Positions 576-62,496 of a DNA stretch of 64,000 bases are shown here, piece after piece. The number at the start of each line of letters is the position of its first letter. The stretch's first letter is position 1. This stretch comes from a virus (taxonomy: Duplodnaviria > Heunggongvirae > Uroviricota > Caudoviricetes): the IMG/VR virus record IMGVR_UViG_3300028584_001240, one strand, 5' to 3'. Under the pieces are notes generated by a model, which was given only the letters and a program-made list of their open reading frames with translations, ran no database searches and had not been told where the DNA came from. The translations under genes and the position numbers were made by a program.

Positions 576-866
576 TTAATGTAGACAAACAACACCTTCA
601 ATATGGCAATCACAGGTGCAAATTTCAATTTCTTTGCCATCAACAACCATTTTGTATTCAAAATAAAAGACAAGTGGTGGCATTTTCTTTAAAAATTGAA
701 AACGTCCTCTTTTCTGAGGTTGGTAAGATTTCTGCACACTAATAATAGGAACATCGTCATTGGCTTTATAACGCTTTTTATACGATTGTTGAAGTTTACC
801 TTCATCCAGTGTTCTATCCGGCTTTAAATACTGGTCGTAACAAAGCCTACAACATGCTGCTACCAT
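576..866 (-). CDS. small Cys-rich putative zinc-binding protein, paralog 1 of 4 (N-terminal ACCxxC; C-terminal CxCxCH...C.H)
   Basis: ORF table 96 aa, MVAACCRLCY...CTCDCHIEGVVCLH. Shares its Cys pattern with the next three ORFs. Confidence 0.55.
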   Translation of the reverse strand: MVAACCRLCYDQYLKPDRTLDEGKLQQSYKKRYKANDDVPIISVQKSYQPQKRGRFQFLKKMPPLVFYFEYKMVVDGKEIEICTCDCHIEGVVCLH

Positions 867-878
867 AATATTCTCCTA

Positions 879-1121
879 TTAATGCATACAATTAATGCCT
901 TCGACATGACAAGGACATGTGCAAAGGGATTGTTCTTTTTTACCATTGATAATATAAGTTCTTTCCAGTAACGGGAGATTGTCCCGAGTAAATGGATTCG
1001 TTTCTTGTCTAACTTCAATAACAGAACCTTTACCAAAAGCAGACTCAACAAATTGCTGACTAATCTCGCCATCGGCTTTAATATATTTTTTATAACAGTG
1101 GTCACAGCATGGCATTACCAT
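879..1121 (-). CDS. small Cys-rich putative zinc-binding protein, paralog 2
   Basis: 80 aa, MVMPCCDHCY...CTCPCHVEGINCMH. Confidence 0.55.
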   Translation of the reverse strand: MVMPCCDHCYKKYIKADGEISQQFVESAFGKGSVIEVRQETNPFTRDNLPLLERTYIINGKKEQSLCTCPCHVEGINCMH

Positions 1122-1143
1122 AATTTATTACTCCTAATTCTAT

Positions 1144-1395
1144 TTAATGCATAACACATAAGTTTGGGTCGTTCAGATGACAATCACAATCACATAACTT
1201 CGTTTCTTTACCATCATGAAGAACATACAAAACTTCCTGATCGGGAAGTTGTCGTCTGATTGAGCTAAATGGATGGGGTTCTTTTCGATATACAGTGGTT
1301 GCTTCCGAGCCAAAGTTCTTGGTTAGAAAAGACTTATTAACACTTTTATCCATTTCAATGTATCTGACTTCACTATATTGACAACATGCAAACAT
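1144..1395 (-). CDS. small Cys-rich putative zinc-binding protein, paralog 3
   Basis: Table ORF 1144..1449 overlaps the next gene. I chose internal Met MFACCQYSEV... as the likely true start because it matches the M-x-ACC N-termini of the paralogs. Ends CDCDCHLNDPNLCVMH. Confidence 0.45.
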   Translation of the reverse strand: MFACCQYSEVRYIEMDKSVNKSFLTKNFGSEATTVYRKEPHPFSSIRRQLPDQEVLYVLHDGKETKLCDCDCHLNDPNLCVMH

Positions 1396-1409
1396 GATAA
1401 TTCTCCAAT

Positions 1410-1664
1410 TTAATGCAAAACGTACAGTCCCATACCTTGAACATGGCATTCACAGGTACACAGTTTAATTTCTTCTTGCCCTTTAATCACATAGGTCACT
1501 TTAACATCTTTTAGTTTTCTTTCTGGTGTATTGTAGGGATTAGCTTCAATCCTGTGTTCAAAAGTGGCATTATCACCAAAATTTTCAACAAGAAACTCTT
1601 TTTTAATGCCACGATCTCCCATGATGTATGGGACATGTGCGTGTTTACAGCAAGCTTCACTCAT
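1410..1664 (-). CDS. small Cys-rich putative zinc-binding protein, paralog 4
   Basis: 84 aa, MSEACCKHAH...CTCECHVQGMGLYVLH. Confidence 0.55.
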   Translation of the reverse strand: MSEACCKHAHVPYIMGDRGIKKEFLVENFGDNATFEHRIEANPYNTPERKLKDVKVTYVIKGQEEIKLCTCECHVQGMGLYVLH

Positions 1665-1666: not shown

Positions 1667-2044
1667 TTATTTCACCTTATCTTTTAATAAAAATCCAAAA
1701 CTTAATACATACCTTGAACCACCTACAACTTTTGTCACTGAGTGTTTTGAGATGTCGGGTCTAAAAAACTTAATTCTAGGCCAATTAATGATACTGTTAT
1801 CAGCCACGAATTCACCACCAGAACGCGATTTTTTCAAAATAATATTTAAACGGTAATGTCTAAACCCTTCATCCACTTTGTCAACATGCTCAGGGATTTG
1901 AGATCCTTCTGGAAATTTAAGTAAATAGAGATCAAAAGGAATCGGCCACATAGATTCAAGCAAAGAAATCTTACTGTAACCAGAAGACTGCCGACCTTGT
2001 TTCCATGTAAACCTATCCGATAACTTCATTTTTAAAATCGCCAT
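1667..2044 (-). CDS. hypothetical protein; possible cupin or 2OG-Fe(II)-oxygenase-like small protein (HxD...H spacing)
   Basis: 125 aa ORF with IPEHVD...HYRLNI segment. Weak, pattern-only call. Confidence 0.3.
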   Translation of the reverse strand: MAILKMKLSDRFTWKQGRQSSGYSKISLLESMWPIPFDLYLLKFPEGSQIPEHVDKVDEGFRHYRLNIILKKSRSGGEFVADNSIINWPRIKFFRPDISKHSVTKVVGGSRYVLSFGFLLKDKVK

Positions 2045-2121
2045 AGTAAGAATCCATTTAAAAGTTAGGTCATATTATACATCAAAACAATACTCACTGT
2101 CAATTTAACAATTAATTAAAT

Positions 2122-2148
2122 AAAAAACCCGCACTAGGCGGGCTTTTT
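2122..2148. terminator. intrinsic terminator hairpin downstream of tyrS (cccgc-actag-gcggg flanked by A6 and T5)
   Basis: Sequence aaaaaacccgcactaggcgggcttttt read directly. Confidence 0.7.
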
Positions 2149-3408
2149 AATGAGTCGAAACTCTCGTTTACCACGTTGAAAGACAGCGAATTTACCAAAC
2201 TTGAAATCCGTAATTTCAAGAGCGTTCATATCATCCTCGCTGACTACCAACTTGTTACCGTTTACTTGAACCGCACCACTATGGATAAACTCTCGGCCTT
2301 GTCGTTTAGACTTAGCCAAACCAGTAGCGACCATCAAGTCAAGCACATTCAATGTTTCAGGAACAACAGCGACCATACCGTTCTTTTCAAGGTTGACAAA
2401 ATCATCTTCTTGCAAGCTATCAAAGTTGTTATCAAACAAAGCTTTGATGTTACGCAATACCGAATCAAGTGCTGCTTGACCATGAACAATAGCAGTTAAT
2501 TCCTCTGCCAAAAGCTGTTGAGCCATCGGTTTAGTGCGTTCTTTATCAGCTTCAAGGATAGCGTCAATTTCTTCAATAGACTTAAAGGACAGCATTTTGA
2601 AGAACTTCGGAATATCCGCATCGGCTACTTTCAACCAAAACTGGAAGAAATCAAAAGGGCTGGTCATTTCTGAAGATAACCAAACCGCACCGCTTTCACT
2701 TTTACCAAACTTCGTGCCATCCGCTTTGGTCAGCAAGGGAATGGTCAACCCAGTGGCTACGACATCATTACCTTCTTTACGATGGATAAGGTCAATACCA
2801 GCAGTGATGTTACCCCACTGATCGCTACCACCCAATTGAAGACGGCAATTTTTCTCTTTCATCAAGTGATGGAAGTCCATTGACTGCAGGAGCTGGTATG
2901 AGAACTCAGTAAAAGAAATACCTTGATCATCACGATCCAAGCGGCTACGTACCGAATCTTTACTCATCATAGCATTCACAGAGAAATGCTTACCCACATC
3001 ACGAAGGAAATCAATAACTGAAAGGTTAACAGTCCAATCATGGTTATCAACAAGTTCTACATCACCCAGAATATGTTTGATTTGACCAGCAATACCTGCT
3101 TTGAAACGATTAACGGTTTCCGCGTCATTCAAAGTACGTTCTTGTGCTTTAAAGCTAGGGTCACCAATCATGCCGGTAGCACCACCAATCAATGGGAACA
3201 CAGTATGGCCCGCTTTCTTAAAGCGAAGCATAGTAATCAATGGCAAAAGACTACCCACATGCAAAGACTCTGCTGTTGGGTCAAACCCGCAGTATAGGGA
3301 CAAGCCATTATCCATAAGGTCTGAAATTTTGCTTTCGTCTGTCATCTGAGAAACGAGGCCACGTTGTTTGAGTTCTTGAATAAATGCGTTCATAATATTT
3401 TTCTCCAC
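2134..3408 (-). CDS. tyrS: tyrosyl-tRNA synthetase, bacterial type with C-terminal S4 domain
   Basis: 424 aa. Class I HIGH-like motif (CGFDPTAESLHVGSL), KMSKS motif as KFGKSESG, and C-terminal S4-like KSKRQGREFIHSGAVQVNGNK. GGAG SD upstream of the ATG. Confidence 0.9.
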   Translation of the reverse strand: MEKNIMNAFIQELKQRGLVSQMTDESKISDLMDNGLSLYCGFDPTAESLHVGSLLPLITMLRFKKAGHTVFPLIGGATGMIGDPSFKAQERTLNDAETVNRFKAGIAGQIKHILGDVELVDNHDWTVNLSVIDFLRDVGKHFSVNAMMSKDSVRSRLDRDDQGISFTEFSYQLLQSMDFHHLMKEKNCRLQLGGSDQWGNITAGIDLIHRKEGNDVVATGLTIPLLTKADGTKFGKSESGAVWLSSEMTSPFDFFQFWLKVADADIPKFFKMLSFKSIEEIDAILEADKERTKPMAQQLLAEELTAIVHGQAALDSVLRNIKALFDNNFDSLQEDDFVNLEKNGMVAVVPETLNVLDLMVATGLAKSKRQGREFIHSGAVQVNGNKLVVSEDDMNALEITDFKFGKFAVFQRGKREFRLIKKPA

Positions 3409-16771: not shown

Positions 16772-18052
<1,281 letters not shown>

Positions 18053-18090: not shown

Positions 18091-18855
18091 TCAATAGCGT
18101 TCGATAGCCAAAACTGGATAGTAACTCATAATCTCTTCGTTACTTAATGCATTTACTTGAGTATGCGTTAAATTATATAGACGAATAATTGTACCTAAAA
18201 TTTGTGTCTGATGGAGGTCATTAAATTGAGTGGCAAAAGTATGCATCTGCATTTTAACTAAACTATCCTGTTCACTTTTCTTCTGAAACCAAAAATCCAT
18301 ACCAAATGACATGAAGTGAAATTCATCATTAAGATAAAATTGATTATTCTCAAATATAAATTTAGCTATTTTATAAACCTTAAAAGTCTCAAAAGGTGTT
18401 GTAACTTCGGCATGAATAGTTTTATCCATCATGAGCGTTTTCCATGAACCAAATTTCAATATTCTTTTTGCAAAAGGTAAAACATTTATGTTTGAGATGA
18501 TTTTTAGTTGCTCGCTGTATTCACTTGCAGCCTTCATAAATAATGAAAAAGAATCTGTGCTTTGTTCACTGCAGTGTTTAATAAATTTATTATAAAGTGG
18601 CAAATATTTTTTGTTATCAATATCTAAGGTAATGTTATTTACTACATAATCACCTTTTTTAACATTATTATTGATAGTAAATCGAAAAATAGGCTTAGCT
18701 TTACTCGTATTGACATCTAAGCAACAAATTGTCCTACCACCAGTATACTGACCCAACCCAGTGCGGGTATGGAAAATAACAGAGCCTTTCATATTTTTTT
18801 CAAAGAAAGGTCTTAACTCTGAGATCATTGCTTGACATAATTCATTATCGTTCAT
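18091..18855 (-). CDS. C-terminal tail family protein, subfamily A paralog 1 (254 aa; ends ...SYYPVLAIERY)
   Basis: Shares PKFIFENNxFYL and SYYPVL blocks with the next two genes. Confidence 0.6.
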   Translation of the reverse strand: MNDNELCQAMISELRPFFEKNMKGSVIFHTRTGLGQYTGGRTICCLDVNTSKAKPIFRFTINNNVKKGDYVVNNITLDIDNKKYLPLYNKFIKHCSEQSTDSFSLFMKAASEYSEQLKIISNINVLPFAKRILKFGSWKTLMMDKTIHAEVTTPFETFKVYKIAKFIFENNQFYLNDEFHFMSFGMDFWFQKKSEQDSLVKMQMHTFATQFNDLHQTQILGTIIRLYNLTHTQVNALSNEEIMSYYPVLAIERY

Positions 18856-18873
18856 TTTTTGTGTTTCCTATCA

Positions 18874-19632
18874 TTAATAACGTTCCATTGACAATACTGG
18901 GTAATAAGACTGGAACTGTTTATCAGTCCAAAGACCAAACTCAGTAAAAGGCACATCATACAGTTCATTAATTTTTGAAGTAATAATTTCATAGTGATCT
19001 TCATAAAATTTATGAGCAAATTCTTTAACTTCAACCTTCATGACATCTACGTCTTCTGTTTTTTGAGCAAACGTATAGTGTTGACCTAGTGAAGTAAAAC
19101 TAAACTTATCATGTAAATAAAATTTATTATTTTCAAAAATAAATTTAGGTGTCTTATGAATGTTGATAACTTCAAAAGGAGTTGTCATAATGGCATGGAC
19201 AGCAAGATCCACTCTAATATAGTCACCATCTGCAATCAACTTTCTTTCCTCAAATGGCAATACATCAATAGCAGTTATTAATTTTAAATGATCAGTCTGT
19301 TTAAGTGTTTCATTCATAAACAAATTAAATGAATTAGAACTGTATTGGCTACACACAGCTATGAATTTATTCAATATGTTTAAATGTTTTTCATCGTGGA
19401 CTTTTATTTCGATAGATTTAAACTTTTGATCATAGATCCTTCTGTCTTTCATAATAATAAAAGATAATAAAAGTTGTCCGGTAGAGGACTGCATATGTAA
19501 AATATCCAAAGAAATACCATTAGGCTTAGTATTATTTAATGAAGCCTTAAACATAACAGGATAATTAAGATGTCGAGCCGCAAACAAGCTTAAAACTGAT
19601 TTCATACTCTCAACCAGTTGTTCTGTTGTCAT
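18874..19632 (-). CDS. C-terminal tail family protein, subfamily A paralog 2 (252 aa; ends ...SYYPVLSMERY)
   Basis: Paralog by eye. Confidence 0.6.
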   Translation of the reverse strand: MTTEQLVESMKSVLSLFAARHLNYPVMFKASLNNTKPNGISLDILHMQSSTGQLLLSFIIMKDRRIYDQKFKSIEIKVHDEKHLNILNKFIAVCSQYSSNSFNLFMNETLKQTDHLKLITAIDVLPFEERKLIADGDYIRVDLAVHAIMTTPFEVINIHKTPKFIFENNKFYLHDKFSFTSLGQHYTFAQKTEDVDVMKVEVKEFAHKFYEDHYEIITSKINELYDVPFTEFGLWTDKQFQSYYPVLSMERY

Positions 19633-20385
19633 TTAACAAACCTCCATCGCTAATACAGGGTAATAAGACATCAATAATTCTGGCGACCAATTAGAAACTT
19701 CATCAACAGGTGTATTATAGAGTTCACTCAATGCAGTAGTTATATAGAGAAAACATTTATTATAGAATAAATCGGCAAACTTTGAAACGTAATCATTAAT
19801 ATATTTTTCATTATTTTCTGTTCTTTTCATGAACTTAAAATTACCAACTTCCGAAGAAAATACAAATTCAGGATTAATATAGAATTTATTTTTTTCAAAG
19901 ATAAATCTAGGTCTTTGTTCTATTTCAATAGTTTCAAAGGCTGTTTCAAGGTTTGCATAAATTTGTGGATCGATAACACCATGCAATTTTGATGAATACT
20001 GAATAGTGCTGGAATCTTGTAGTATATTGACAGCTTTGATAAATTTCAAATGATTGCTTTGTCTAATCATAGCGTCCACAAATAATGAAAATGAATTAAA
20101 CCCATCAACACAATATTCCTTTACAAACAAATTATAGATGCCTAAATATTTTTGGTCACCAATCACTATATTAATTGAATGTCTTTTAGCCTCATTTGTC
20201 GATTCAAGAATAAAACTGAAAATAATGCTTCCTGATGCAGTGAGGACACGAACATCAGGAAAAAGATTATGACTGCCAACATTACCATTAGTCCGTTTCT
20301 GGAAAAAGACAGGTTCGAGCACATTATCTTTAAAAAATGGCTTTATTTTGGCTATAATTGAATCACATAAATCATTTATATTCAT
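19633..20385 (-). CDS. C-terminal tail family protein, subfamily A paralog 3 (250 aa; ends ...SYYPVLAMEVC)
   Basis: Paralog by eye. Abuts the previous gene and overlaps the next by 4 nt. Confidence 0.6.
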   Translation of the reverse strand: MNINDLCDSIIAKIKPFFKDNVLEPVFFQKRTNGNVGSHNLFPDVRVLTASGSIIFSFILESTNEAKRHSINIVIGDQKYLGIYNLFVKEYCVDGFNSFSLFVDAMIRQSNHLKFIKAVNILQDSSTIQYSSKLHGVIDPQIYANLETAFETIEIEQRPRFIFEKNKFYINPEFVFSSEVGNFKFMKRTENNEKYINDYVSKFADLFYNKCFLYITTALSELYNTPVDEVSNWSPELLMSYYPVLAMEVC

Positions 20386-24525: not shown

Positions 24526-24555
24526 TTGACAGATATCGTCATATTTTGCTATAAT
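24526..24555 (+). promoter_or_regulatory. near-consensus sigma70 promoter (TTGACA, 18 nt spacer, TATAAT) upstream of 24585 gene
   Basis: ttgacagatatcgtcatattttgctataat read directly. SD agaggtg follows at 24570-24576. Confidence 0.6.
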
Positions 24556-26876: not shown

Positions 26877-27317
26877 ATGAACACGCAGGATCAATCAATA
26901 TTAACTACAATTTATAGAATATTTATAGGACTCACAATCTGTGGGCCAATCATGGCATTATTCATTTCACTGCCCTTTGGACTACCAGTGGTGTTAACAA
27001 TCGCTCTAATAGCCAACTTAATAATGTCTATGAAATATTACAACGAACTGGTTCGCTCATCTTTTGATAGAGAGATTAGAAAATTACTTCATTTTTTTAC
27101 GACATCAATTACTATTTTGTTTCTAACATCCATACCTGCTTTAATAACTTCATACACTGTTGTAAATGACATGACTGCGACGATGGATATGATTGCTGTG
27201 GTTATTAAATTTATAGGATCTATCGTTGCATGGGGATATTACTTAGTTGTTTTGATAAAGGAATATCATCAATTTGAAAAAATGAAAAATAAAAAAAATA
27301 ATATATTTATAGCTTGA
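26877..27317 (+). CDS. small multi-pass membrane protein, paralog 1 of 3 (146 aa, ~4 predicted TM segments, KYY motif)
   Basis: Hydrophobic segments read from the ORF translation. Related to the next two ORFs. Confidence 0.55.
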   Translation: MNTQDQSILTTIYRIFIGLTICGPIMALFISLPFGLPVVLTIALIANLIMSMKYYNELVRSSFDREIRKLLHFFTTSITILFLTSIPALITSYTVVNDMTATMDMIAVVIKFIGSIVAWGYYLVVLIKEYHQFEKMKNKKNNIFIA

Positions 27318-27334
27318 AAACAACAATAATATTT

Positions 27335-27358
27335 AAAAGGCACTTAGGTGTCTTTTTT
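27335..27358 (+). terminator. terminator-like hairpin ggcac-ttag-gtgtc + T7 (member of repeated terminator motif)
   Basis: Read directly. Confidence 0.5.
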
Positions 27359-27875
27359 TAGTTCATTCGATTGTAAAAGAACAACTACATATTATAATAA
27401 TATAAACAACAATCAAAGATGTGTCCTCATGGATGACAACAACCGATATTCAACATTGAATAATATTTATAAAGCGTTAATTTTTATGACGTTTGCAGTG
27501 CCTACACTTTGTTTTTACATTGCGTTTCAATCGTATATACTTGCCATTCTTTTACTACTTTTATTCATTATTGTTCCACATGCCTTAATTTGGACAAAAT
27601 ATTATAAGCTTACTGACCATGACACTTTTCAATTGCATATTAAAAAAATATTGATGGCTTTTTGGATATCCGGTGGGATACTTTTAGTTTCTTTGTTGCC
27701 AATGTTAGTTTTTGTTGGAGCCGATGGTGGTCAACCCACTGGCGGCGAATATCTAATGATGTTCTTAGCAGCAATTGGATGTTTCATAGGGCCAGCGTTT
27801 TCTTGGTCTTATTATGGCTACAAATTGATGAAAAATTATAGTTTACTTGATAAACAAATAAGAGGTGAGATATGA
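27348..27875 (+). CDS. small multi-pass membrane protein, paralog 2 (175 aa; true start possibly the later Met MDDNN)
   Basis: ORF table. Hydrophobic segments and KYY motif. Confidence 0.5.
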   Translation: MSFFSSFDCKRTTTYYNNINNNQRCVLMDDNNRYSTLNNIYKALIFMTFAVPTLCFYIAFQSYILAILLLLLFIIVPHALIWTKYYKLTDHDTFQLHIKKILMAFWISGGILLVSLLPMLVFVGADGGQPTGGEYLMMFLAAIGCFIGPAFSWSYYGYKLMKNYSLLDKQIRGEI

Positions 27876-28300
27876 ATAGTTTTAACGAATACGAGTGTTT
27901 AAAGAACATTTATTCAAGAATGATCATGCTCACAGCTATATCACCAATAGCTGTCTTATTTTTTGGCCCATTTTTGTTTTTATATATATTGATACCTAAT
28001 CTTTATATTTATGTTAAATATTATAAAAGACATGGCAATACAAAATTTGAAGGGCATATCAGAAAAATACTTAAAACATGTTTAATTTCGTTAAGTGTTC
28101 TATTTATATTTTTGTTACCACTTATATCAATGGCCTTCATAGACTTTACAAAAATATATCAAGGAACAGCTTATATGATTTTAATGGTAGCAATGATTTG
28201 TGTTGGTGTTGGTCTTTTGATTTCGTGGGCTTATTATTTTCATAACTTAATGAAGCTATCAAAAACTATAGATGAAAATGACTTTAACAAACTTATTTAA
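27872..28300 (+). CDS. small multi-pass membrane protein, paralog 3 (142 aa)
   Basis: ATGA start/stop overlap with the previous gene. KYY motif. Terminator follows. Confidence 0.55.
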   Translation: MNSFNEYECLKNIYSRMIMLTAISPIAVLFFGPFLFLYILIPNLYIYVKYYKRHGNTKFEGHIRKILKTCLISLSVLFIFLLPLISMAFIDFTKIYQGTAYMILMVAMICVGVGLLISWAYYFHNLMKLSKTIDENDFNKLI

Positions 28301-38095: not shown

Positions 38096-38149
38096 AACAA
38101 GACCTCAAAAAAATAAACCTTATAGAATTATAAGATTTATGTAATAATG

Positions 38150-38224
38150 TTGAAGAGGAAGGATTTGAACCTCCGACATACCCGCCCAAAATGCAGGCTG
38201 CTCTACCCACTGAGCTACCCTTCA
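38150..38224 (-). tRNA. tRNA, anticodon most likely UUU (Lys); no encoded CCA
   Basis: RC is TGAAGGG-TA-GCTC-AGTGGGTA-GAGC-...CCTGC-ATTTTGG-GCGGG...GGAGG-TTCAAAT-CCTTC-CTCTTCA. Acceptor stem (one G-U), D-arm and T-arm fold well. Junction spacing around the anticodon stem is slightly non-canonical, so the isotype is tentative. Confidence 0.6.
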
Positions 38225-38272
38225 AACTCTTTATAAAACAATAGAGCAACTAGGTTACTCTATTTTTTAAAT

Positions 38273-38349
38273 TGGTCGGAGTGGCAGGATTTGAACCTGC
38301 GGCATCTTGCTCCCAAAGCAAGCGGTCTACCGGGCTGACCTACACTCCG
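38273..38349 (-). tRNA. tRNA-Pro (anticodon UGG) with genomically encoded CCA
   Basis: RC is CGGAGTG-TA-GGTC-AGCCCGGTA-GACC-G-CTTGC-TTTGGGA-GCAAG-ATGCC-GCAGG-TTCAAAT-CCTGC-CACTCCG-A-CCA. Perfect cloverleaf, G37. Confidence 0.85.
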
Positions 38350-43885: not shown

Positions 43886-44614
43886 ATGAATGAGAAATAC
43901 ACAATAGTCCAGAATGATAGTTTAGAATTTGATGAATTGTTCGATGTCAGTCAAATTAATATGAGTTATTATTTTTCAAATTGGGTTAACAATGAGATTA
44001 AAATGACAAAAATTATTAAAAAACTTTATCTGGAAGGTATAAAAGTTGATATGATTAATATGTATGCAAATCCAGACAAGGGAGATCACCGTGAATATTG
44101 TGATGTTGAGAATCGTGATGATAGAATATATTACAATTTTATTAGTCAATTATTAAAACAATCTCATGCTAGAAATGACTTCAATTATTATGAACATTTA
44201 CCATTATCTGATCGAAAAGGTTATATGGATATTTGCTATCTCTTCAATAGGCCAAAAATAGAAATAAGATATCACACTAAAACAATTAGCACTATTTTTA
44301 CATTTACTGAGACTGGTTTGGTTATTGTATACAAAATTAACAATAATGACAGTAATAAAATGATGATAGAAATAAAAATCAATGAGAATAATGAAATATT
44401 ATCAACAATTGTTCACTTTAATGGAAAGATTTATAAAGAACCAGAAAAGATAAAATTAAGTCATAAACAGCTAGATTATCTTATTGCTTTATGTCATTAT
44501 GGCATGATAGAAGAGAAAGATTTTAATGTAGAGCCATATATTGATAAGGTGTTAGCAGAAGATTATAAAGATGTAATTAATTATTTTAAAGTAAAAGAGA
44601 TGACTTACATATGA
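43886..44614 (+). CDS. C-terminal tail family protein, subfamily B paralog 1 (242 aa; ends ...NYFKVKEMTYI)
   Basis: Shares SNKMM, QLDYLI and KVKEM blocks with the next gene. Confidence 0.6.
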   Translation: MNEKYTIVQNDSLEFDELFDVSQINMSYYFSNWVNNEIKMTKIIKKLYLEGIKVDMINMYANPDKGDHREYCDVENRDDRIYYNFISQLLKQSHARNDFNYYEHLPLSDRKGYMDICYLFNRPKIEIRYHTKTISTIFTFTETGLVIVYKINNNDSNKMMIEIKINENNEILSTIVHFNGKIYKEPEKIKLSHKQLDYLIALCHYGMIEEKDFNVEPYIDKVLAEDYKDVINYFKVKEMTYI

Positions 44615-45405
44615 CAAATCAATATATCGTAAAAATACTCAGCTCAAAACATGTCTTTGATGAGACATCTAATAAGGGTGTTGAGAATAAATATTTAACT
44701 GTAAAAACAGAAAATGAAGACTTTAAAAAGTTATTGGATATTAGTGCTATAAACAGCAGATATTATTTTTCAGCGTGCTTAAATATTAAAGATAAAGTTA
44801 CTCAACATCTAAAAGAGACGAATAAAAAATTCGCAGACGTTAGACCTTATCACGCTCCTGATAAAGATGATTGCACGGAATATACAGATGTAAAAAATCA
44901 GAACTCTACTGTATACATGGATTTTATTGAGAACCTTGTTAAAAATGCACATGCAAGAAGTCATTTAACATTTGTGGACTATATTAAAGACATTCATAAA
45001 AAAGCTGACGTTATTTTTTCTCACTTTTTTGACAATGCTAAGATAAGTATCACCTATTTTACAAAACCTATCATGCTTTGTATGAATTTTGATAAAAATG
45101 GATTGAATATTGTCTATATGCTAAATAGTTGTGACAGCAATAAAATGATGTTAGACATTACTATTAATCACAACACTGAAATTATCTCAACAGAAGTTTA
45201 CTTTAATTTTAATAATACAAGATCAAATGAAACAGATATGATTACTTTAAACCATCAACAATTAGATTACCTTATTGTATTAAGTCATTATGCTGACGGT
45301 GAAGAGATTGATTTTATGGTTGAAAAATATGTTGATGACATTTTAGCTGAGAACTATCAAGATTTACTCGATTACATTAAAGTTAAAGAAATGATGCACA
45401 TCTAA
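44611..45405 (+). CDS. C-terminal tail family protein, subfamily B paralog 2 (264 aa; ends ...DYIKVKEMMHI)
   Basis: ATGA overlap with the previous gene. Confidence 0.6.
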   Translation: MTNQYIVKILSSKHVFDETSNKGVENKYLTVKTENEDFKKLLDISAINSRYYFSACLNIKDKVTQHLKETNKKFADVRPYHAPDKDDCTEYTDVKNQNSTVYMDFIENLVKNAHARSHLTFVDYIKDIHKKADVIFSHFFDNAKISITYFTKPIMLCMNFDKNGLNIVYMLNSCDSNKMMLDITINHNTEIISTEVYFNFNNTRSNETDMITLNHQQLDYLIVLSHYADGEEIDFMVEKYVDDILAENYQDLLDYIKVKEMMHI

Positions 45406-46148: not shown

Positions 46149-47327
46149 ATGAACGACAAATTAAATGAAGAAAAGAGATACATGAAAGTCGCCAAAGAAA
46201 TGAACTTATTCATGTTGGCTGAAAGTGCAGGTGTTGTTTACTGGAAACCAGAAGGGCTTAAATTGTATGAGAATTTAAAATCTTTTATTCGTAAACACCA
46301 TGAAGACGCTGGTTATCTTGAAGTCAAGAGTCCATCCATTGTGGTGCCTAGCTTATTTGAGCAGTCTGGTCATATGGATAAATACAAAGATAACATGTTC
46401 TTTCTCAATTCATCAGAAGCCAGTAACTACGCTCTCCGTCCTATGAGCTGTCCCAACCATATCCTAATCTATCAATCAGAAAAAAGAAGCTACCGTGAAC
46501 TCCCATTACCAATATTTGAGTTTGGTGAGGTGTTTCGTAATGAAGCGTCTGGTGCATTACAAGTGTTATTCAGACAAAGACAATTCTGTCAGGATGATAG
46601 TCATGTGTTTGTGAATGAAGAAAATCTAATCAGTTCGGTCAATCAATACATACAGATGAGCCAAAAAGCGTATGAAGAACTCGGATTCAAAAAGATTAAA
46701 TACGCCATTGCGTTACGTCCAGAAAAAAGATTTGGTGATGACATCTTATGGGATAAAGCCGAAGAAGCCTTGCGAGAAGCCTGCAGAATGAATAATCTTG
46801 ATTTCGTAGAAAACGAAAATGACGGGGCTTTCTATGGCCCGAAACTAGAACTCCAAGTAGAAGACAAACTCGGCAGATCATGGCAATTAGGTGTGATACA
46901 GCTTGATTATGTTCTTCCAGAACGTTTTGGACTTGAATACATTGATGCCGATAACAAACCTAAGCGTCCTATTATTCTCCACCATGCCGTATTAGGTTCA
47001 CTTGAACGCATGATAGGGATCTTGTTGGAGTCCTTTGGTAAAGACATACCTGACTTCTTACACCCTATGAAATCAGTGGTTATTCCAGTATCCGAAAAAT
47101 CTATGGAGTATGCAAAGGTCGTATTCTCTCATATGGATAAGAAATCATCTAAACTGGATCAAAGTGCTGATTCATTAGGTAAGAAGATTCGATACTGGAA
47201 AGAACGTGGTGTTCCTGAGATCATTGTAGTCGGTGAAGCTGAACAAAGTAAATATGACAATGAAGGTGTGATTAGTTTTGTCGTCAATCTTGGTGCTGTC
47301 AAAGAAGTCAGAGAAATTAAGCCATAA
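46149..47327 (+). CDS. thrS: threonyl-tRNA synthetase-like protein: catalytic core plus anticodon-binding domain only (N-terminal TGS and editing domains absent)
   Basis: 392 aa. Class II ThrRS blocks KSPSIVVPSLFEQSGHMDKYKDNMF, ALRPMSCPNH and FRQRQFCQDDSHVF align by eye with ThrRS from about residue 240 onward. Confidence 0.75.
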   Translation: MNDKLNEEKRYMKVAKEMNLFMLAESAGVVYWKPEGLKLYENLKSFIRKHHEDAGYLEVKSPSIVVPSLFEQSGHMDKYKDNMFFLNSSEASNYALRPMSCPNHILIYQSEKRSYRELPLPIFEFGEVFRNEASGALQVLFRQRQFCQDDSHVFVNEENLISSVNQYIQMSQKAYEELGFKKIKYAIALRPEKRFGDDILWDKAEEALREACRMNNLDFVENENDGAFYGPKLELQVEDKLGRSWQLGVIQLDYVLPERFGLEYIDADNKPKRPIILHHAVLGSLERMIGILLESFGKDIPDFLHPMKSVVIPVSEKSMEYAKVVFSHMDKKSSKLDQSADSLGKKIRYWKERGVPEIIVVGEAEQSKYDNEGVISFVVNLGAVKEVREIKP

Positions 47328-48000: not shown

Positions 48001-48669
48001 TCAATAGTAATACATCTTAACAATTTGCTTTTCTGATTTAGTAAGCTTCTCTGTCGTGTCCTTTTTGTCAATAAGTTGTGAATAGTACCTAATAAAAAAT
48101 TCATTGTCAATCATTTTAACGGCATTCTCAAAACTATATTCATTGTTTTTTACAATAATATAAAGTTCTGGAAATTCTTTATACTTTTTAAATTTTAAAA
48201 CGATTTTTTGATAGATATTTCCATGTAACGAATGGTAAACATACACTGGATAGATTTCAATATGATCAAGGTTAGCATACACTGGGTTTTTCTTTTTATT
48301 TATTTCATCGCCTTTATTGATAAGACGAAGATGATTTGTAATCACCTTAAAAAATTTTTTAGCATGATAATTATCAACATTCTCAAAATAGACCTTTCTA
48401 GGCGATTCTTTTTTTGATAATAGATTAGGTTTAATGTCGAAAGAGCACTCATGCTCTGAGTCATGTTGGAAATAAGTCAGATTACCAATAGCATAAAATC
48501 TATCATAACCTGATCTTATTTTCGGTGTGCCATCTGGATTTACCGCTTCCTGAACAATAGTGTAACCAGAAGATATTTGATATCTATAATTAATATTACT
48601 GACGGAATGCTTTAAATAGTAATTAAAGGACGCCATATTGTCAGGTAAATCGAATTTTCCTATATCCAT
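48001..48669 (-). CDS. C-terminal tail family protein, subfamily C paralog 2 (222 aa; ends ...EKQIVKMYYY)
   Basis: ORF table. Confidence 0.55.
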   Translation of the reverse strand: MDIGKFDLPDNMASFNYYLKHSVSNINYRYQISSGYTIVQEAVNPDGTPKIRSGYDRFYAIGNLTYFQHDSEHECSFDIKPNLLSKKESPRKVYFENVDNYHAKKFFKVITNHLRLINKGDEINKKKNPVYANLDHIEIYPVYVYHSLHGNIYQKIVLKFKKYKEFPELYIIVKNNEYSFENAVKMIDNEFFIRYYSQLIDKKDTTEKLTKSEKQIVKMYYY

Positions 48670-48673
48670 AATA

Positions 48674-49414
48674 TTAATAGTAAACCATTTTAATCAACTC
48701 TTGTTCTTTTTTGTTAAAGAATTTGCCACGCTCAATTTTTTCACGATCAACAATACCATTATAATAACGTGTTTGAAATGTTTTTTCCATATCATCAATA
48801 GCGGCTAAAAATTTGTTGTCATCATTTAAAATAACAATTTTATGTTCTGGGTAGCCATTGCTTGCTTTAAATTTAAGGAGAGCACATTTACTAACGATTT
48901 GACTAATACGATCATATCTGTAGAAGCACCTAACCATAAGCGATTTTGAATCAAAATTAATAAGTTCACGTTTTTTATGCAAAAGAGTAGCTTCATTTAA
49001 AAGTTTAAGGTGCCGTTTTAATCTCACCCAAAATTCATCAACATGAAACCTATAAACATAATCAAATTTAATAGGTTTACCTGTATCATCTTTTGAAGTG
49101 AGCAGTGTAAAAGAGACTTCGAAATCAGAATCCCAATTACATTCACGACCATTAACAATACTGGCAACCTGATAAAATTTATCATAATACCGAATATGAC
49201 CACTGCCCCAACCAGAAGTTTCATAGACTCTAATTCTATGACCATCAGTCGTTAAGGGATAACGATGAACATAAATGGAATCATCACCATACTCATATTC
49301 GGCATTTGAAAATTTCGAAGAAAAGTATTTTGCAAGTTCAGTCGCTTTATTAATTTCAGTGGAAGGCATAAACATAATAAGAGAACCTTTTTTTAATTTA
49401 AGTAAGTGTATCAA
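48674..49414 (-). CDS. C-terminal tail family protein, subfamily C paralog 3 (246 aa; ends ...EQELIKMVYY)
   Basis: ORF table. Confidence 0.55.
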   Translation of the reverse strand: MIHLLKLKKGSLIMFMPSTEINKATELAKYFSSKFSNAEYEYGDDSIYVHRYPLTTDGHRIRVYETSGWGSGHIRYYDKFYQVASIVNGRECNWDSDFEVSFTLLTSKDDTGKPIKFDYVYRFHVDEFWVRLKRHLKLLNEATLLHKKRELINFDSKSLMVRCFYRYDRISQIVSKCALLKFKASNGYPEHKIVILNDDNKFLAAIDDMEKTFQTRYYNGIVDREKIERGKFFNKKEQELIKMVYY

Positions 49415-50142
49415 TAATAGGTCATTTTTACAAGTTCTTTTAAACGTTCATCCCATTTTGAAATATCCAATAGAGCATAAACATCATCAAAACTCATATT
49501 AGGATAAGCTTCTTTTATTTTGTCTTTGTAATACAGTTTAAAAAACTCAATGTCCATATTTTTTAACGTATTCTGTGTAGTTAACATATTATCCGTTACA
49601 TAGTAGACTGGAAGGATTTCACTAGATGATTTGTTACTTTTCATAAACTGAACAGCTAGAGTTCTTGAAATTTTTTTATTAAGCTGATCATATTTGAAAT
49701 TAAATTTAATTGAAAAGTCGTTGCAGACAATAAATTGATAATCGTCAGAAATATTTTTTTGATTGAGAAGTGTTAAGTGTTGATTAGTATGTTGCATAAA
49801 CAAATCAATCATTGGTGAAGATAAATCACCAAAACGTTCAGAATAAATATCATCGTATTTAGAAGATAATTCAAAAAAAAGTGAACTTGGTGTGTCACCT
49901 TTACCAACATGAGCAATAGTTTCCGACTTAGCGGCTGTGCCACCATACATTCCATAAGTAAAAGGAGCTTCTTTAAGTGCTTCAATAATCCGATTACCCT
50001 CTTTATCTAATGGATAACGACAGATTCCAATTGGATTAGTACCATACTCGTAGTGTTCATTTGTAAAGTTGTTTACAAAATAATCAAGGAATCCATACAA
50101 GGGAAACTGTTTCTTTTTTTCTTCATCAATGACTTCATTCAT
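49411..50142 (-). CDS. C-terminal tail family protein, subfamily C paralog 4 (243 aa; ends ...LKELVKMTYY)
   Basis: ORF table. 4-nt overlap with the downstream gene. Confidence 0.55.
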   Translation of the reverse strand: MNEVIDEEKKKQFPLYGFLDYFVNNFTNEHYEYGTNPIGICRYPLDKEGNRIIEALKEAPFTYGMYGGTAAKSETIAHVGKGDTPSSLFFELSSKYDDIYSERFGDLSSPMIDLFMQHTNQHLTLLNQKNISDDYQFIVCNDFSIKFNFKYDQLNKKISRTLAVQFMKSNKSSSEILPVYYVTDNMLTTQNTLKNMDIEFFKLYYKDKIKEAYPNMSFDDVYALLDISKWDERLKELVKMTYY

Positions 50143-50928: not shown

Positions 50929-51498
50929 TTAAATGCAAATCATGCGAATAACTTCACGTTCTTCTGGTGTCATGCTTGCTAAGGGTTTAATCAATTCTTC
51001 TGGAATAGGTTGACCAAAATAGCTAATGTAATAATCTAACACTTTTCTTTCCATTTCTTCAATATTACTGTCATTTACTTCAAAAAGAGACATGTGATAA
51101 TCACCATATTCAAGCTCGTTAAATTCAAAGAGATGAACCTTTTGAATATGCCCAGATAAATTGATAAAATAATAAGCATACTCATTATAACATTCATCAT
51201 ATTTTTCAGGATTGAAAAACTCATCATAATCTTTAATGATATTATATAGCTTGGACTCAAATGAATATTTTTCTTCAAGATAATTTAAAAAATCACTCCA
51301 ATTGTGATGATCTGGGTTAATGCCAAAAGCATGACCTTCATCCAATGTGATGTGATCAACTAGATTGTGTTCATGGACAAGCTTTGGCCGGGTCAATCTA
51401 AAAGATTTTTTAGTAATCCCTTTCGAGATAAGAAAATCTTTGACCTGTTCATAAATTGTGTCATAGGAAAACTCTTTGGTTTCAATCATCAATATCAC
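50929..51498 (-). CDS. C-terminal tail family protein, subfamily D paralog 1 (189 aa; ends ...TPEEREVIRMICI)
   Basis: ORF table. Confidence 0.55.
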   Translation of the reverse strand: MILMIETKEFSYDTIYEQVKDFLISKGITKKSFRLTRPKLVHEHNLVDHITLDEGHAFGINPDHHNWSDFLNYLEEKYSFESKLYNIIKDYDEFFNPEKYDECYNEYAYYFINLSGHIQKVHLFEFNELEYGDYHMSLFEVNDSNIEEMERKVLDYYISYFGQPIPEELIKPLASMTPEEREVIRMICI

Positions 51499-51555
51499 CT
51501 TTAAAATAGATGAATCATTATAGCATTATAATAACAAAAAATCCACACAATCTAT

Positions 51556-52122
51556 CTAAATATGAATCATTTCAAGTAACGATATTTCTTCTTTTGATAA
51601 TTGACTTAATGGTCTTTTTAATTCTTCTGGTGTGTTGGCATTTCCAAAATACTGAAAATAGTAATCGAAAATTCTAGTTTCTAATGAGCGTAAATTAGTG
51701 TCATCAAATTCAAGAAACTTCATATAATCATTGCCCAACTCAATGTCAGTAAAGTCAAATGAATAAACTTTTCTCAGTCTTTGATCCATATCAAAAGCAT
51801 AATGACCATTAACATAATAACAGTCTTTTCTCGGATGCTTATTAAAAAAGTCATCATAAAAACCCAGTGTTTTTTCAAGGCGGCTCTCAAAAGAATAACG
51901 ATGGTCTAAATATTCAGCCAAAGGTTCACAAAAAGGATGGTTCCATTTGATTTTAAAACAATGCCCCATCGAAATAGTTTGATTATCAAAAATAATTTCA
52001 CGAGTCAGAATCTCTGGAATTGCTGCACAGAAGTCTTCCTTTTTGATAGAATTAATCAAACAAAAAGTTTGAAGAGATTCAAAGACAGTCTCATCAGTAA
52101 ACTTATAGGTTTCAATCGTCAT
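51556..52122 (-). CDS. C-terminal tail family protein, subfamily D paralog 2 (188 aa; ends ...SKEEISLLEMIHI)
   Basis: Shares DYYxxYFG, PEEL and RPL blocks with its neighbours. Confidence 0.55.
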   Translation of the reverse strand: MTIETYKFTDETVFESLQTFCLINSIKKEDFCAAIPEILTREIIFDNQTISMGHCFKIKWNHPFCEPLAEYLDHRYSFESRLEKTLGFYDDFFNKHPRKDCYYVNGHYAFDMDQRLRKVYSFDFTDIELGNDYMKFLEFDDTNLRSLETRIFDYYFQYFGNANTPEELKRPLSQLSKEEISLLEMIHI

Positions 52123-60912: not shown

Positions 60913-61692
60913 TCAAATATAAGACATTCTGATAAGATCAAGCTCTCTTTTATTAAACATCTTATTGGTTCTTAAAAAATGAGTAAAGCTACTACCATAC
61001 AGTTTAGTCACACTTATCTCACATGTTTTAAGAATATCACTCAGTAAAATAGATTCCAGTTCACCTGATTTAAAGACAAAATAATGCACATCATAAATAT
61101 TAACATCGTGTAAAGTGGTGCCATCTTCTTGAAGTATGCTTTTAATGGGGCGTTCAACCACCATAGGCACTGTGCCATTAATACCTTTCTGCAAAGGTCT
61201 GCAGTCTTCCAAGAAATACCAAATTTGGTCGATTTTAAACGTGGTATCATCAATTTCATATGACATGCTTTTTAAATAAAGATCTTTTAACAATCTTTTA
61301 GGTTTTGCAAATTTAATCATCCGTGGCAATCCTGACGGACTAAATGCTATGTTATATGACAAAGAATATTCGCTTCCTTTTTCAAAGGATGCACTAGTTA
61401 TTACAAAATAGGATTGCTCTTTTTTATCAACAACCGCCGAGGCAAGTTCAAGGACACATCCTTTGTTATTACTATATCTATAAATAATTTCATTAACTTC
61501 AAACCCAATATCATTAAAAAATTGATTGAGTTCATCCGTGTCCAAGTCAAACTTCAAGCAATAATTTGAACTTTCAATAATATTCATAACCAGCGGTTTG
61601 TATTCTTCACAGTTTTCTTTATTGATTAGATAATGATCAACATAATGAAATTCAATTCTAGATAAGTAATCTTCTTCAGTAGCTTCTGGCAT
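60913..61692 (-). CDS. C-terminal tail family protein, subfamily E paralog 1 (259 aa; ends ...KRELDLIRMSYI)
   Basis: Shares LQKGINGxxxMxxExP, NIYDVxY and DIL.xC blocks with the next two genes. Confidence 0.6.
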   Translation of the reverse strand: MPEATEEDYLSRIEFHYVDHYLINKENCEEYKPLVMNIIESSNYCLKFDLDTDELNQFFNDIGFEVNEIIYRYSNNKGCVLELASAVVDKKEQSYFVITSASFEKGSEYSLSYNIAFSPSGLPRMIKFAKPKRLLKDLYLKSMSYEIDDTTFKIDQIWYFLEDCRPLQKGINGTVPMVVERPIKSILQEDGTTLHDVNIYDVHYFVFKSGELESILLSDILKTCEISVTKLYGSSFTHFLRTNKMFNKRELDLIRMSYI

Positions 61693-61713
61693 ATTTAACT
61701 CCCTAAATCGTAT

Positions 61714-62496
61714 TTAGATATACATCATCTCAATGATATCCCGCTCTCTTTTAGTAAACATTTTAGACATAGTAAGAAAATCAGTGTAATCAGTGCCATA
61801 CATTCTAGCACAACTAAAATCACACTGTGTTAATATATCAATCAGTCGAACTTCCTTAGATTTACCATGTACAGTATAGTAAACATCATAGATATTTACA
61901 TTGTAAAATGACTGAGTGTTTTCAACAATTCTTTTTAATGGATGTTCAATAATCATTGTTATATAGCCATTAATACCTTTTTGTAGCTTTCTGTTATCGT
62001 TAAAACAATAACCAATTTGGTCGATCTTAAGAGTATCACAGTCTATGATATAATGAATAGATTTAAGGGTAAGTCCTTTCAATATTTTGTTTGCTGATTT
62101 AAATGTTCGAGAAACAGCAACACCTTGTAAATTGTAAGACGTAAAATAACTGTGAACGTAACGATCATTCTTAGTAAACTCAACCCATTGCAAGACATAG
62201 CGGTCTTGTACAACCTCACCCTCAATGACAGCAGTTAAATCAATCTCACATCCTTGGTTGTCATTGAATTTCAACGTATTTTCTTCAGATAAAAATCCAG
62301 ATAATGAGAGAAATTCATTCAATTGTGCTCGTTTTAAATCAAATTTTATGATGTAAGAATAATCTTTCAACATCTCAATGAGATTGTCTTTGTATTCATG
62401 CATATTATTTTCGTTAATAATATGTGTCTCCAAATAACGATATTCAATTTTGGCTTCTAACTTGGTAGGTTTTAGTGTATTCATAACAATCGTCAC
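61714..62496 (-). CDS. C-terminal tail family protein, subfamily E paralog 2 (260 aa; ends ...KRERDIIEMMYI)
   Basis: Paralog by eye. Confidence 0.6.
   Translation of the reverse strand: MTIVMNTLKPTKLEAKIEYRYLETHIINENNMHEYKDNLIEMLKDYSYIIKFDLKRAQLNEFLSLSGFLSEENTLKFNDNQGCEIDLTAVIEGEVVQDRYVLQWVEFTKNDRYVHSYFTSYNLQGVAVSRTFKSANKILKGLTLKSIHYIIDCDTLKIDQIGYCFNDNRKLQKGINGYITMIIEHPLKRIVENTQSFYNVNIYDVYYTVHGKSKEVRLIDILTQCDFSCARMYGTDYTDFLTMSKMFTKRERDIIEMMYI

What the first reader, a model, noticed from the sequence alone, without database searches (positions are those of the whole stretch)
576..1664. Four tandem paralogs of an 80-96 aa cysteine-rich protein (ACCxxC ... LCxCxCH ... C.H) next to tyrS
Each copy starts M-x-x-ACC-x-x-C and ends with CTCDCH/CTCPCH/CDCDCH/CTCECH, then about 7 residues, then C/L.xH. 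This is a compact, probable two-site zinc-binding module that I cannot match to a named domain. Four divergent copies in a row suggest diversifying duplication, as for small binders or inhibitors.
Basis: seen in the sequence. Interest (0 to 1): 0.6.

Follow-up and report, generated by a model that had tools for sequence, protein, structure and literature searches.

The report
Split metal-knot mini-proteins of huge phages
Four neighbouring genes encode small cysteine/histidine-rich proteins of an undescribed phage family, and they matter because their two chain ends appear to join into a probable metal-binding knot that relatives carry as one continuous 19-residue stretch.

Summary
Four minus-strand genes (84, 83, 80 and 96 aa; 1410-1664, 1144-1395, 879-1121, 576-866) each have a ribosome-binding site. 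All four are under purifying selection (dN/dS 0.06-0.28). They hold the only four CxCxCH motifs in the 64-kb window.

The invariant signature is M-x(2-3)-CC ... CxCxCH-x7(9)-H-stop. That is five Cys and two His. The third Cys of "CCxxC" is not conserved.

There is no match in Pfam, NCBIfam, PHROGs, PDB sequences or PDB folds. An exhaustive profile search finds about 200 representative relatives. About a quarter of those read carry the same motifs in swapped order, as one continuous knot: CxCxCH-x7-H-x3-CC. The window proteins are therefore a circular permutation, nicked exactly after the second His. In 128 of 128 split forms that His is the last residue, and Met-removal rules predict exactly three residues before CC (p = 2e-26).

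The knot is common in phage contigs. It also occurs fused to a C2HC finger and inserted into a thymidylate synthase.

The four genes share an operon with a 2OG-Fe(II)-oxygenase-like gene, behind a conserved perfect sigma-70 promoter. Copy number is 2-4 in related genomes.

The metal and the function are untested. My best inference is that these are zinc-stapled small binders made early in infection by a huge phage.

The parts
2074..2103 (-). Perfect sigma-70-type promoter (TTGACA, 18-nt spacer, TATAAT) driving the five-gene operon
   Evidence: It scores 12/12 against the consensus. Both hexamers and the 18-nt spacing are identical in orthologous loci L003, L006, L007 and L009, while the spacer and flanks differ.
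2121..2149 (-). Intrinsic terminator of tyrS, separating tyrS from the operon
   Evidence: A 12-bp stem with a T-run.
1667..2044 (-). First gene of the operon: a 125-aa 2OG-Fe(II)-oxygenase-like protein with an HxD...H...R motif
   Evidence: Matches phrog_13746 at E = 1.7e-38 and Pfam 2OG-FeII_Oxy_3 weakly at E = 0.0014. Homologs occur in about 30 jumbo phages, one annotated as a 2OG-Fe(II) oxygenase. Its stop codon lies 2 nt before the next start codon.
1410..1664 (-). Copy 1, 84 aa (MSEACC ... CTCECH-x9-H); CxCxCH codons at 1443-1460
   Evidence: The AlphaFold2 model has pLDDT 81.8, with helix 22-29 and strands 34-40, 54-61 and 64-68. dN/dS is 0.09-0.16.
1144..1395 (-). Copy 2, 83 aa (MFACC ... 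CDCDCH-x9-H); CxCxCH codons at 1177-1194
   Evidence: A GGAG ribosome-binding site precedes ATG 1395. Orthologs begin MRACC or MQSCC. dN/dS is 0.12.
879..1121 (-). Copy 3, 80 aa (MVMPCC ... CTCPCH-x7-H); CxCxCH codons at 906-923
   Evidence: dN/dS is 0.06-0.10.
576..866 (-). Copy 4, 96 aa (MVAACC ... CTCDCH-x7-H), with a longer and more diverged insert; CxCxCH codons at 603-620
   Evidence: It is absent from the L003 relative and present in L007 and L009. dN/dS is 0.26-0.28. It sits in a separate clade in the NJ tree.

Best explanation
These are four real, co-transcribed genes. They encode small cytoplasmic proteins of an undescribed family found mainly in large lytic phages.

Each protein is built around one compact Cys5His2 metal knot. 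In many relatives the knot is a continuous 19-residue stretch: C-x-C-x-C-H-x7-H-x3-C-C. In the window proteins the chain is circularly permuted. It starts three residues before the CC pair and ends exactly at the second His. The knot can therefore only form when the N- and C-termini come together. A variable alpha/beta insert of about 55 residues is held between the two halves.

Inferred, not shown: the knot binds metal, most likely two Zn(II) sharing one bridging thiolate, and staples the small fold shut.

Inferred: host RNA polymerase transcribes the genes early in infection from the conserved consensus promoter, together with a small 2OG-Fe(II)-oxygenase-like enzyme.

Inferred: each paralog uses its own conserved insert surface to bind or modulate a different host or phage macromolecule, in host take-over or counter-defence. 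The array gains and loses members over time.

I put the structural and evolutionary part at about 0.85 and the functional part at about 0.35.
For: Genes are real: each has a Shine-Dalgarno site, the spacing is tight, and dN/dS is 0.06-0.28.

Seven invariant ligands across 31 sequences.

Circular permutation:
- A profile built only from split forms hits about 200 representatives. Of the 176 sequences read, 47 match in two stretches in swapped order.
- Re-joined split cores and contiguous cores align without gaps over 46 columns at 53% mean column identity, with C4, C6, C8, H9, H17, C21, C22 and Y29 invariant.
- P0150 carries two contiguous knots, which is the intermediate expected from permutation by duplication.
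- In 128 of 128 split forms the second His is the last residue. Leaders of form M-x-x-x-CC have a Met-aminopeptidase-removable second residue in 72 of 73 cases. Leaders of form M-x-x-CC have a non-removable one in 46 of 52 (Fisher p = 2e-26). The mature leader therefore equals the invariant 3-residue linker.

The knot is an autonomous module. A scrambled-spacing control gives 44 loci and 6 clean hits. The knot also occurs at N-termini, at C-termini, fused to a C2HC finger, and inserted in a loop of a thymidylate synthase.

No N-terminal signal-peptide-like hydrophobic stretch is evident by eye, so the cysteines should sit in the reducing cytoplasm.

Phage context: homologs occur in Chimalliviridae, Straboviridae and Ackermannviridae. 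The window itself has aminoacyl-tRNA synthetases, tRNAs and PHROG hits.

The promoter is conserved across orthologous loci.

Array turnover: 2-4 copies, and 28-43% identity against 68% for the neighbouring gene.
Against: - No metal, no structure with metal and no expression data exist.
- I could not read the AlphaFold coordinates, so contact between the two ends was not checked. The ends have the lowest confidence (pLDDT 50-72).
- Seven ligands do not make two ordinary tetrahedral sites unless one Cys bridges or an outside ligand is used.
- No fusion partner or conserved neighbour points to a target.
- Close orthologs show purifying rather than positive selection.
- Near-consensus promoter-like sites are not enriched in the window overall (10 found against 6.1 +/- 2.2 in shuffles).
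- 'Early expression' rests on the promoter type alone.
Confidence: 0.55

Rival explanations
1. The small proteins are substrates or partners of the co-transcribed 125-aa 2OG-Fe(II)-oxygenase-like enzyme. They might be hydroxylated, for example at the NP[FY] loop of copies 1-3. Alternatively they might deliver or buffer iron for the enzyme. On this reading the operon is one functional unit.
For: The gene order 2OG-like gene then Cys array, with stop and start 2 nt apart or overlapping, is kept in every relative of this clade examined. This holds even where the array members have diverged to 28-43% identity. The enzyme has an HxD...H...R signature (read from the sequence; one search gives a weak Pfam match).
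Against: Cultured jumbo phages with the 125-aa homolog have no CxCxCH ORF within 3 kb. Phage Viktualia has both genes about 116 kb apart. Family members elsewhere stand alone. The NP[FY] motif is not conserved outside the three closest paralog groups.
Confidence: 0.12
2. The knot holds a redox-active or soft-metal centre, either an Fe-S cluster or a Cu(I) cluster. The proteins would then act in electron transfer, metal sequestration or sensing rather than as structural zinc scaffolds.
For: CxC and CC pairs, together with the common Met residues next to the ligands (V-M-H-F-M-P-C-C consensus), resemble Cu(I)- and cluster-binding motifs (the resemblance is from general knowledge). One relative lies on the same 6-kb contig as a Fer2_BFD gene, about 1.6 kb away.
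Against: The Met positions interchange with L, F and I, as hydrophobic core residues do. Seven invariant ligands in 19 residues are more than one cluster needs. The knot appears as a passive insert in a thymidylate synthase and as an appendage in unrelated architectures. No redox partner is conserved nearby.
Confidence: 0.12
3. They are zinc-finger-type nucleic-acid-binding regulators of phage or host transcription or translation.
For: A large sub-family carries the knot directly followed by a C2HC finger (CC-x2-C-x2-C-x10-12-H-x3-C), a type often used on nucleic acids. Several members sit among tRNA genes.
Against: The window copies lack the C2HC finger. I saw no helix-turn-helix or other known DNA-binding signature, and I did not measure charge. 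The tRNA regions are also general hot-spots for small accessory genes.
Confidence: 0.12
4. The ORFs are chance or decaying reading frames rather than functional genes.
For: They are short and have no database annotation.
Against: dN/dS is 0.06-0.28, each ORF has a ribosome-binding site, the termini are conserved, and there are about 200 homolog clusters.
Confidence: 0.01

Closest known systems
Binuclear and cross-braced zinc modules (Gal4-type Zn2Cys6; RING, PHD and LIM 8-ligand cross-braces)
   Same: Many closely spaced Cys/His ligands in a very short stretch, probably holding two metal ions. Adjacent ligands (C-H, C-C) probably go to different ions or bridge. The module acts as a staple for a small fold.
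   Different: The ligand pattern CxCxCH-x7-H-x3-CC (5 Cys + 2 His, seven ligands) fits none of their signatures. There is no sequence or fold match. The comparison comes from general knowledge, not from a test.
Circularly permuted domain families that arose by tandem duplication (for example saposin/swaposin)
   Same: The same two sequence halves occur in both orders. A two-module protein (P0150) exists, as do tandem gene arrays that would give one form from the other by fusion and trimming.
   Different: Here the break falls inside the metal site itself, exactly after a ligand. Both new termini are trimmed to the residue. I am not aware of a described zinc module with this property.
Small accessory and early proteins in variable regions of T4-like and jumbo phages, including anti-defence gene arrays
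   Same: Size of 55-100 aa, location among tRNA genes and other small unknown ORFs, a host-type promoter, tandem paralogs, variable copy number and fast divergence.
   Different: No member has a known target or phenotype. Close orthologs show purifying rather than positive selection.
Uncharacterised single-copy homologs in Chimalliviridae (PA1C QBX32529.1, PS119XW A0A5C1K862, Psa21 PSA21_412, Viktualia CDS0292, an unannotated ORF in 201phi2-1)
   Same: True family members: same split topology, same seven ligands, 28-35% identity, and the same predicted fold (TM 0.69-0.74).
   Different: They are single copy, not next to the 2OG-like gene, and absent from phiKZ itself.

Membership tests
Gal4-type Zn2Cys6 binuclear cluster | C-x2-C-x6-C-x5-12-C-x2-C-x6-8-C, six Cys and no His | tested here: not met
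   The invariant pattern is C-x-C-x-C-H-x7-H-x3-C-C. No Pfam hit.
CDGSH (mitoNEET) 2Fe-2S domain | C-x-C-x2-[ST]-x3-P-x-C-D-G-[SAT]-H | tested here: not met
   The pattern is absent from all copies. No Pfam hit.
Metallothionein-like peptides | Very high Cys content (about 15-30%), with little regular secondary structure or hydrophobic core | tested here: not met
   The copies have 5-7 Cys in 80-96 residues (6-9%). The model shows a confident helix plus three-stranded sheet.
New family proposed here: Cys5His2 knot, split topology | Seven invariant ligands: CC within 4 residues of the start, and CxCxCH-x7(9)-H ending the chain | tested here: met
   All four window copies and 128 of 128 split-type relatives meet this.
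New family proposed here: Cys5His2 knot, split topology | Homology of both halves to the contiguous knot CxCxCH-x7-H-x3-CC in swapped order (circular permutation) | tested here: met
   Two-stretch swapped HMM matches down to E = 4e-9. Gapless 46-column joint alignment. A two-knot intermediate, P0150.
New family proposed here: Cys5His2 knot, split topology | The N- and C-termini are in contact and jointly bind metal | not testable with these tools
   Model coordinates cannot be read and AlphaFold does not place metals. The only evidence is indirect: the exact trimming of both termini.
2OG-Fe(II) oxygenase superfamily (the neighbouring 125-aa protein) | HxD...H iron triad plus a 2OG-binding Arg on a jelly-roll fold, scoring above Pfam's threshold | tested here: inconclusive
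   The motifs are visible in the sequence. The Pfam 2OG-FeII_Oxy_3 score is 19.9 bits against a cut-off of 27. There is a strong match to the function-unknown phrog_13746. One phage homolog is annotated as a 2OG-Fe(II) oxygenase.

The most novel reading that the evidence does not exclude
The CxCxCH-x7-H-x3-CC knot is a previously unrecognised class of binuclear metal mini-domain that is largely specific to phages. Nature uses it in two ways: as a continuous plug-in module, and as a precisely nicked, circularly permuted clasp that closes small effector proteins by joining their two ends. The window's array would then be a set of such clasped effectors, each aimed at a different host target.
Probability: 0.4. 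Interest if true: 0.7.

Novelty: new variant of a known kind. Interest (0 to 1): 0.55.

Why it matters
If confirmed, this adds a new and very small (19-residue) metal-binding fold to the catalogue. It would be a rare natural case in which a circular permutation cuts through the metal site itself, so that metal binding closes the protein like a clasp.

That is of interest for three reasons. For protein evolution, it shows permutation by duplication with the intermediates still present. For protein design, it offers a tiny metal-dependent scaffold that displays a variable insert. For phage biology, it describes a widespread family of small unannotated proteins in jumbo and T4-like phages that are candidate host take-over or counter-defence factors.

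It also gives annotators a simple signature for hundreds of "hypothetical" small phage ORFs.

Tried and rejected
- **Family libraries.** Pfam, NCBIfam and PHROGs scans of split forms, contiguous forms and other architectures gave no significant match.
- **PDB sequence profiles.** The only hit is 8tto_A 'Hachiman' (53 aa, E = 0.007). It covers the Lys/Glu-rich middle and none of the ligands. I could not trace it in the literature and treat it as probably spurious. The core profile gave no hit.
- **Second AlphaFold job.** I spent it on a single sequence (P0079) without an alignment. The model is unusable at pLDDT 49, so there is no model of a contiguous form.
- **Faulty DNA scans.** Two scans used a pattern that was one base short. 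Their zero counts mean nothing.
- **Conserved neighbours.** No conserved neighbouring gene family was found around 92 IMG/VR knot genes.
- **Link to T4 gp30.3.** Rejected. The RSP15 neighbour is unrelated to the window's 125-aa protein.
- **Extra Cys pair.** Covariation between the optional Cys at CC+3 and a Cys two residues before the last His is weak (p = 0.02, uncorrected for phylogeny).
- **EF-hand reading.** An EF-hand-like reading of the Y-x-K-Y-I-N-x-D-G-x-I-D tail is rejected. Position 1 does not fit and the window copies do not keep the motif.
- **Literature.** Searches for the motif and for the Chimalliviridae homologs found nothing on this family.

Full report
**1. What is in the sequence**

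On the minus strand, four short ORFs follow one another. They lie at 1410-1664 (84 aa), 1144-1395 (83 aa), 879-1121 (80 aa) and 576-866 (96 aa). The second copy is also listed as a 101-aa ORF from 1449. Three things place its real start at ATG 1395: the GGAG box before that ATG, the overlap of the longer frame with copy 1, and the N-termini of its orthologs (MRACC, MQSCC).

Every copy has a Shine-Dalgarno sequence, and the gaps between genes are 2-22 nt.

Upstream lies a 125-aa gene (1667-2044) whose stop codon is 2 nt from the start of copy 1. It is preceded by a perfect TTGACA-18-TATAAT promoter (2103-2074). The promoter in turn follows the tyrS terminator (2149-2121). The unit is therefore a five-gene operon separate from tyrS.

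The pairwise identity of the four copies is 28-42%. CxCxCH occurs nowhere else in any frame of the 64-kb window.

**2. Are they genes?**

Relatives of this genome turn up in metagenomes with the same gene order: Nudix, a 197-aa gene, tyrS, the 125-aa gene, then the array. I compared each copy with its orthologs in three such loci. This gave dN/dS of 0.09-0.16 (84 aa), 0.12 (83 aa), 0.06-0.10 (80 aa) and 0.26-0.28 (96 aa). For comparison, the 125-aa gene gives 0.08-0.18 and tyrS gives 0.03. All four copies are protein-coding and constrained.

**3. The conserved signature**

In an alignment of 31 homologs, seven positions are invariant: two adjacent Cys near the start, C-x-C-x-C-H near the end, and a His that is the last residue. 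Family-wide that position is C 53%, T 26%, S 7%.

**4. No known family**

- Pfam, NCBIfam and PHROGs give nothing for these proteins or for any relative tested.
- Profile searches of PDB sequences give nothing credible.
- An AlphaFold2 model of the 84-aa copy, built from the family alignment, is fairly confident (pLDDT 81.8). It has a helix at 22-29 and strands at 34-40, 54-61 and 64-68, with lower confidence at both ends.
- Among predicted viral structures, only uncharacterised homologs from phages Psa21 and PS119XW match.

**5. Relatives, and the key finding**

The word-indexed search found only about 30 close clusters. tblastn found single-copy homologs at 28-35% identity in Chimalliviridae: the PA1C group, Psa21, Viktualia and 201phi2-1, but not phiKZ itself.

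The exhaustive HMM search with the family profile found 206 representative proteins at E <= 0.001. Reading them showed two topologies.

- 120 sequences are 'split', like the window copies.
- 47 carry the C-terminal motif running directly into the N-terminal motif: ...I-C-x-C-x-C-H-x-x-G-x-x-V-M-H-F-M-P-C-C-x-L-[TC]-Y-x-K-Y-I-N-x-D-G-x-I-D...

The spacing in the second group is nearly fixed, at x7 in 44 of 47 and x3 in 46 of 47.

When the split forms are re-joined end to start, they align with the contiguous forms without a single gap over 46 columns. Mean column identity is 53%, and C4, C6, C8, H9, H17, C21, C22 and Y29 are invariant. One protein, P0150, has two contiguous knots. The stretch between them is exactly a split-type protein, which is the classic intermediate of permutation by duplication.

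**6. The termini are trimmed to the residue**

I used a definition that does not presuppose the answer: CC within the first 12 residues and a later CxCxCH. In all 128 such proteins, nothing follows the second His.

- 73 have four residues before CC. In 72 of them the second residue is V, S, A, P or C. By the established specificity of methionine aminopeptidase, these residues allow removal of the initiator Met.
- 52 have three residues before CC. In 46 of them the second residue is M, F, L, R, Q, E, N or I, which blocks removal.

The association is strong (Fisher p = 2e-26). The predicted mature N-terminus is thus three residues before CC in about 94% of cases, the same length as the invariant H-x3-CC linker. 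The split proteins therefore look like the knot with one peptide bond removed, right after a ligand.

This is indirect but strong evidence that the two ends sit side by side in the folded protein. I could not check distances because model coordinates are not exposed.

**7. The knot is a widespread, mostly viral module**

Of these, 90 are clean hits in ORFs of 35-400 aa. The same codons with scrambled spacing (x5/x5) hit 44 contigs in total, with 6 clean. Non-ligand positions are also conserved: G three residues after CH, I/V at position 12, and P/A before CC.

Many of these proteins lack the Y-x-K-Y tail, so the knot defines a broader superfamily. Three architectures recur: knot alone, knot plus a C2HC finger, and a form with a further CxCxxC upstream. 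The knot sits at N-termini, at extreme C-termini, and once inside a loop of a thymidylate synthase (L023). That fits a self-contained unit whose own ends are close together.

Only about 19-25 of those 120 hits look genuine. Most of these are in MAG contigs, for example Saccharibacteria, and could be phage DNA.

Cultured phages with the contiguous form include T4-like phages of Acinetobacter (AbTZA1, 55 aa), with weaker tblastn matches in Vibrio and Aeromonas phages, and Ralstonia phage RSP15.

**8. Genomic setting**

The window is AT-rich (about 32% GC). It carries TyrRS, SerRS, a third class-II synthetase, an NAD-dependent ligase and two tRNAs. It also has some PHROG hits (head-maturation protease, DNA polymerase). 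Most of its ORFs are unknown. Its TyrRS is 46-48% identical to those of CBB/GAP32-type jumbo phages. This looks like a very large phage.

The promoter hexamers and their 18-nt spacing are identical in four orthologous loci although the spacer differs, so the promoter is under selection. That argues for transcription by host sigma-70 polymerase, which for lytic phages usually means early genes. This last step is inference.

**9. The array over time**

The NJ tree groups the 84-, 83- and 80-aa types together, as a lineage-specific expansion. The 96-aa type falls apart from them.

Copy number varies among relatives:
- 3 in the L003 relative;
- 4 in L007 and L009;
- 3 in L295;
- 2 in L304.

In all these loci the array sits directly after the 124/125-aa gene. 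In L295 the 125-aa protein is 68% identical to the window's, but no array member is more than 43% identical to any window copy.

The array therefore evolves by birth, death and fast divergence, while each member is constrained in the short term. Two near-identical relatives (L007, L009) differ sharply only in the 80-aa gene (dS about 1), which suggests allele exchange by recombination.

**10. The neighbouring enzyme**

The 125-aa protein matches phrog_13746 (E = 1.7e-38) and, weakly, Pfam 2OG-FeII_Oxy_3. It shows an HxD...H...R pattern. Homologs occur in about 30 jumbo phages.

In five such phages I found no CxCxCH ORF within 3 kb. In Viktualia the two genes are about 116 kb apart. The linkage is therefore conserved within this clade but not beyond it. 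A functional tie is possible, not established.

**11. Interpretation**

Shown:
- the genes are real;
- the family is new;
- seven ligands are invariant;
- the split form is a circular permutation of a widespread phage knot;
- the termini are trimmed exactly;
- the operon and promoter are conserved;
- copy number varies.

Inferred:
- metal binding, with zinc most likely: the proteins are cytoplasmic and Cys/His-rich, and seven ligands fit two tetrahedral sites with one bridging thiolate;
- the clasp-like closure of the fold;
- early expression;
- a role as small binders of host or phage targets.

Rivals are a partnership with the 2OG-like enzyme, a redox or copper centre, and nucleic-acid binding. 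None is excluded.

**12. Verdict**

This is a new family of a familiar general kind, small Cys/His metal modules in phage accessory proteins, with an unusual twist: a permutation that cuts through the metal site. It deserves moderate to fairly high interest. Function is still open.

Noticed in passing
L003 (JGI 3300034157, contig Ga0370506_000001, 788356-800610): A close relative of this region, with the same gene order and 87-98% protein identity, lies on a 1,917,244-bp metagenomic contig. Other relatives lie on contigs of 520, 216 and 170 kb. Most genes there have no Pfam hit. The contig could be an exceptionally large phage-like genome, a cell carrying this element, or a misassembly.
   Followed up: no
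window 5898-64000: The window holds at least eight further groups of paralogous ORFs, most of them tandem. Examples are 18091-20385, 26877-28300, 48001-50142, 60913-64000, 43886-45405 and 50929-52122. Tandem duplication is therefore a general habit of this genome, not special to the Cys-rich array.
   Followed up: partly
window 16772-18043, 46149-47327, 55044-56918, 38149-38349: Besides tyrS, the window encodes a seryl-tRNA synthetase, a second class-II synthetase with an HGTP anticodon-binding domain, an NAD-dependent DNA ligase with a BRCT domain, and tRNA-Lys and tRNA-Pro.
   Followed up: partly
L007 vs L009, the 80-aa gene (L007 6535-6777; L009 5180-5422): These two relatives are identical in the 84-aa gene and nearly so in the 83-aa gene. 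They differ strongly in the 80-aa gene (dN 0.20, dS about 1.0). This suggests replacement of one array member by recombination.
   Followed up: no
L023 (IMGVR_UViG_3300002460_001525), 314-aa ORF, knot at residues 163-181: A thymidylate synthase (ThyA-like) carries the CxCxCH-x7-H-x3-CC knot as an insertion in a surface loop, just before the conserved QRS-D--LG-PFN segment.
   Followed up: partly
L024, L028, L032, L050, L088, L122 (IMG/VR); L178, L192, L235, L237 (Saccharibacteria MAG contigs): A recurrent 55-100-aa architecture joins the knot directly to a C2HC finger (CC-x2-C-x2-C-x10-12-H-x3-C). It is common on contigs binned with candidate-phyla-radiation bacteria. It has no Pfam match either.
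   Followed up: partly
Pseudomonas phage 201phi2-1, NC_010821.1 301753-302007 (minus strand): A full-length family member (31% identity to the PA1C protein, E = 1e-8) lies where the reference record has no annotated gene.
   Followed up: no
window 24526-24555 (+) and 24480 (-): A second perfect TTGACA-18-TATAAT site lies upstream of the 714-aa gene at 24585. It is back to back with an 11/12 site on the other strand, which looks like a divergent promoter region.
   Followed up: no
L295 46-216 and L304 1744-1908: In more distant relatives, a conserved 54-56-aa gene precedes the 2OG-like gene within the same operon. The window lacks it.
   Followed up: no
PDB 8tto_A: A 53-aa chain named 'Hachiman' gives a marginal profile match (E = 0.007) to the Lys/Glu-rich region after the CC pair (profile positions 10-46). 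The match covers none of the ligands. I found no paper on this entry.
   Followed up: partly
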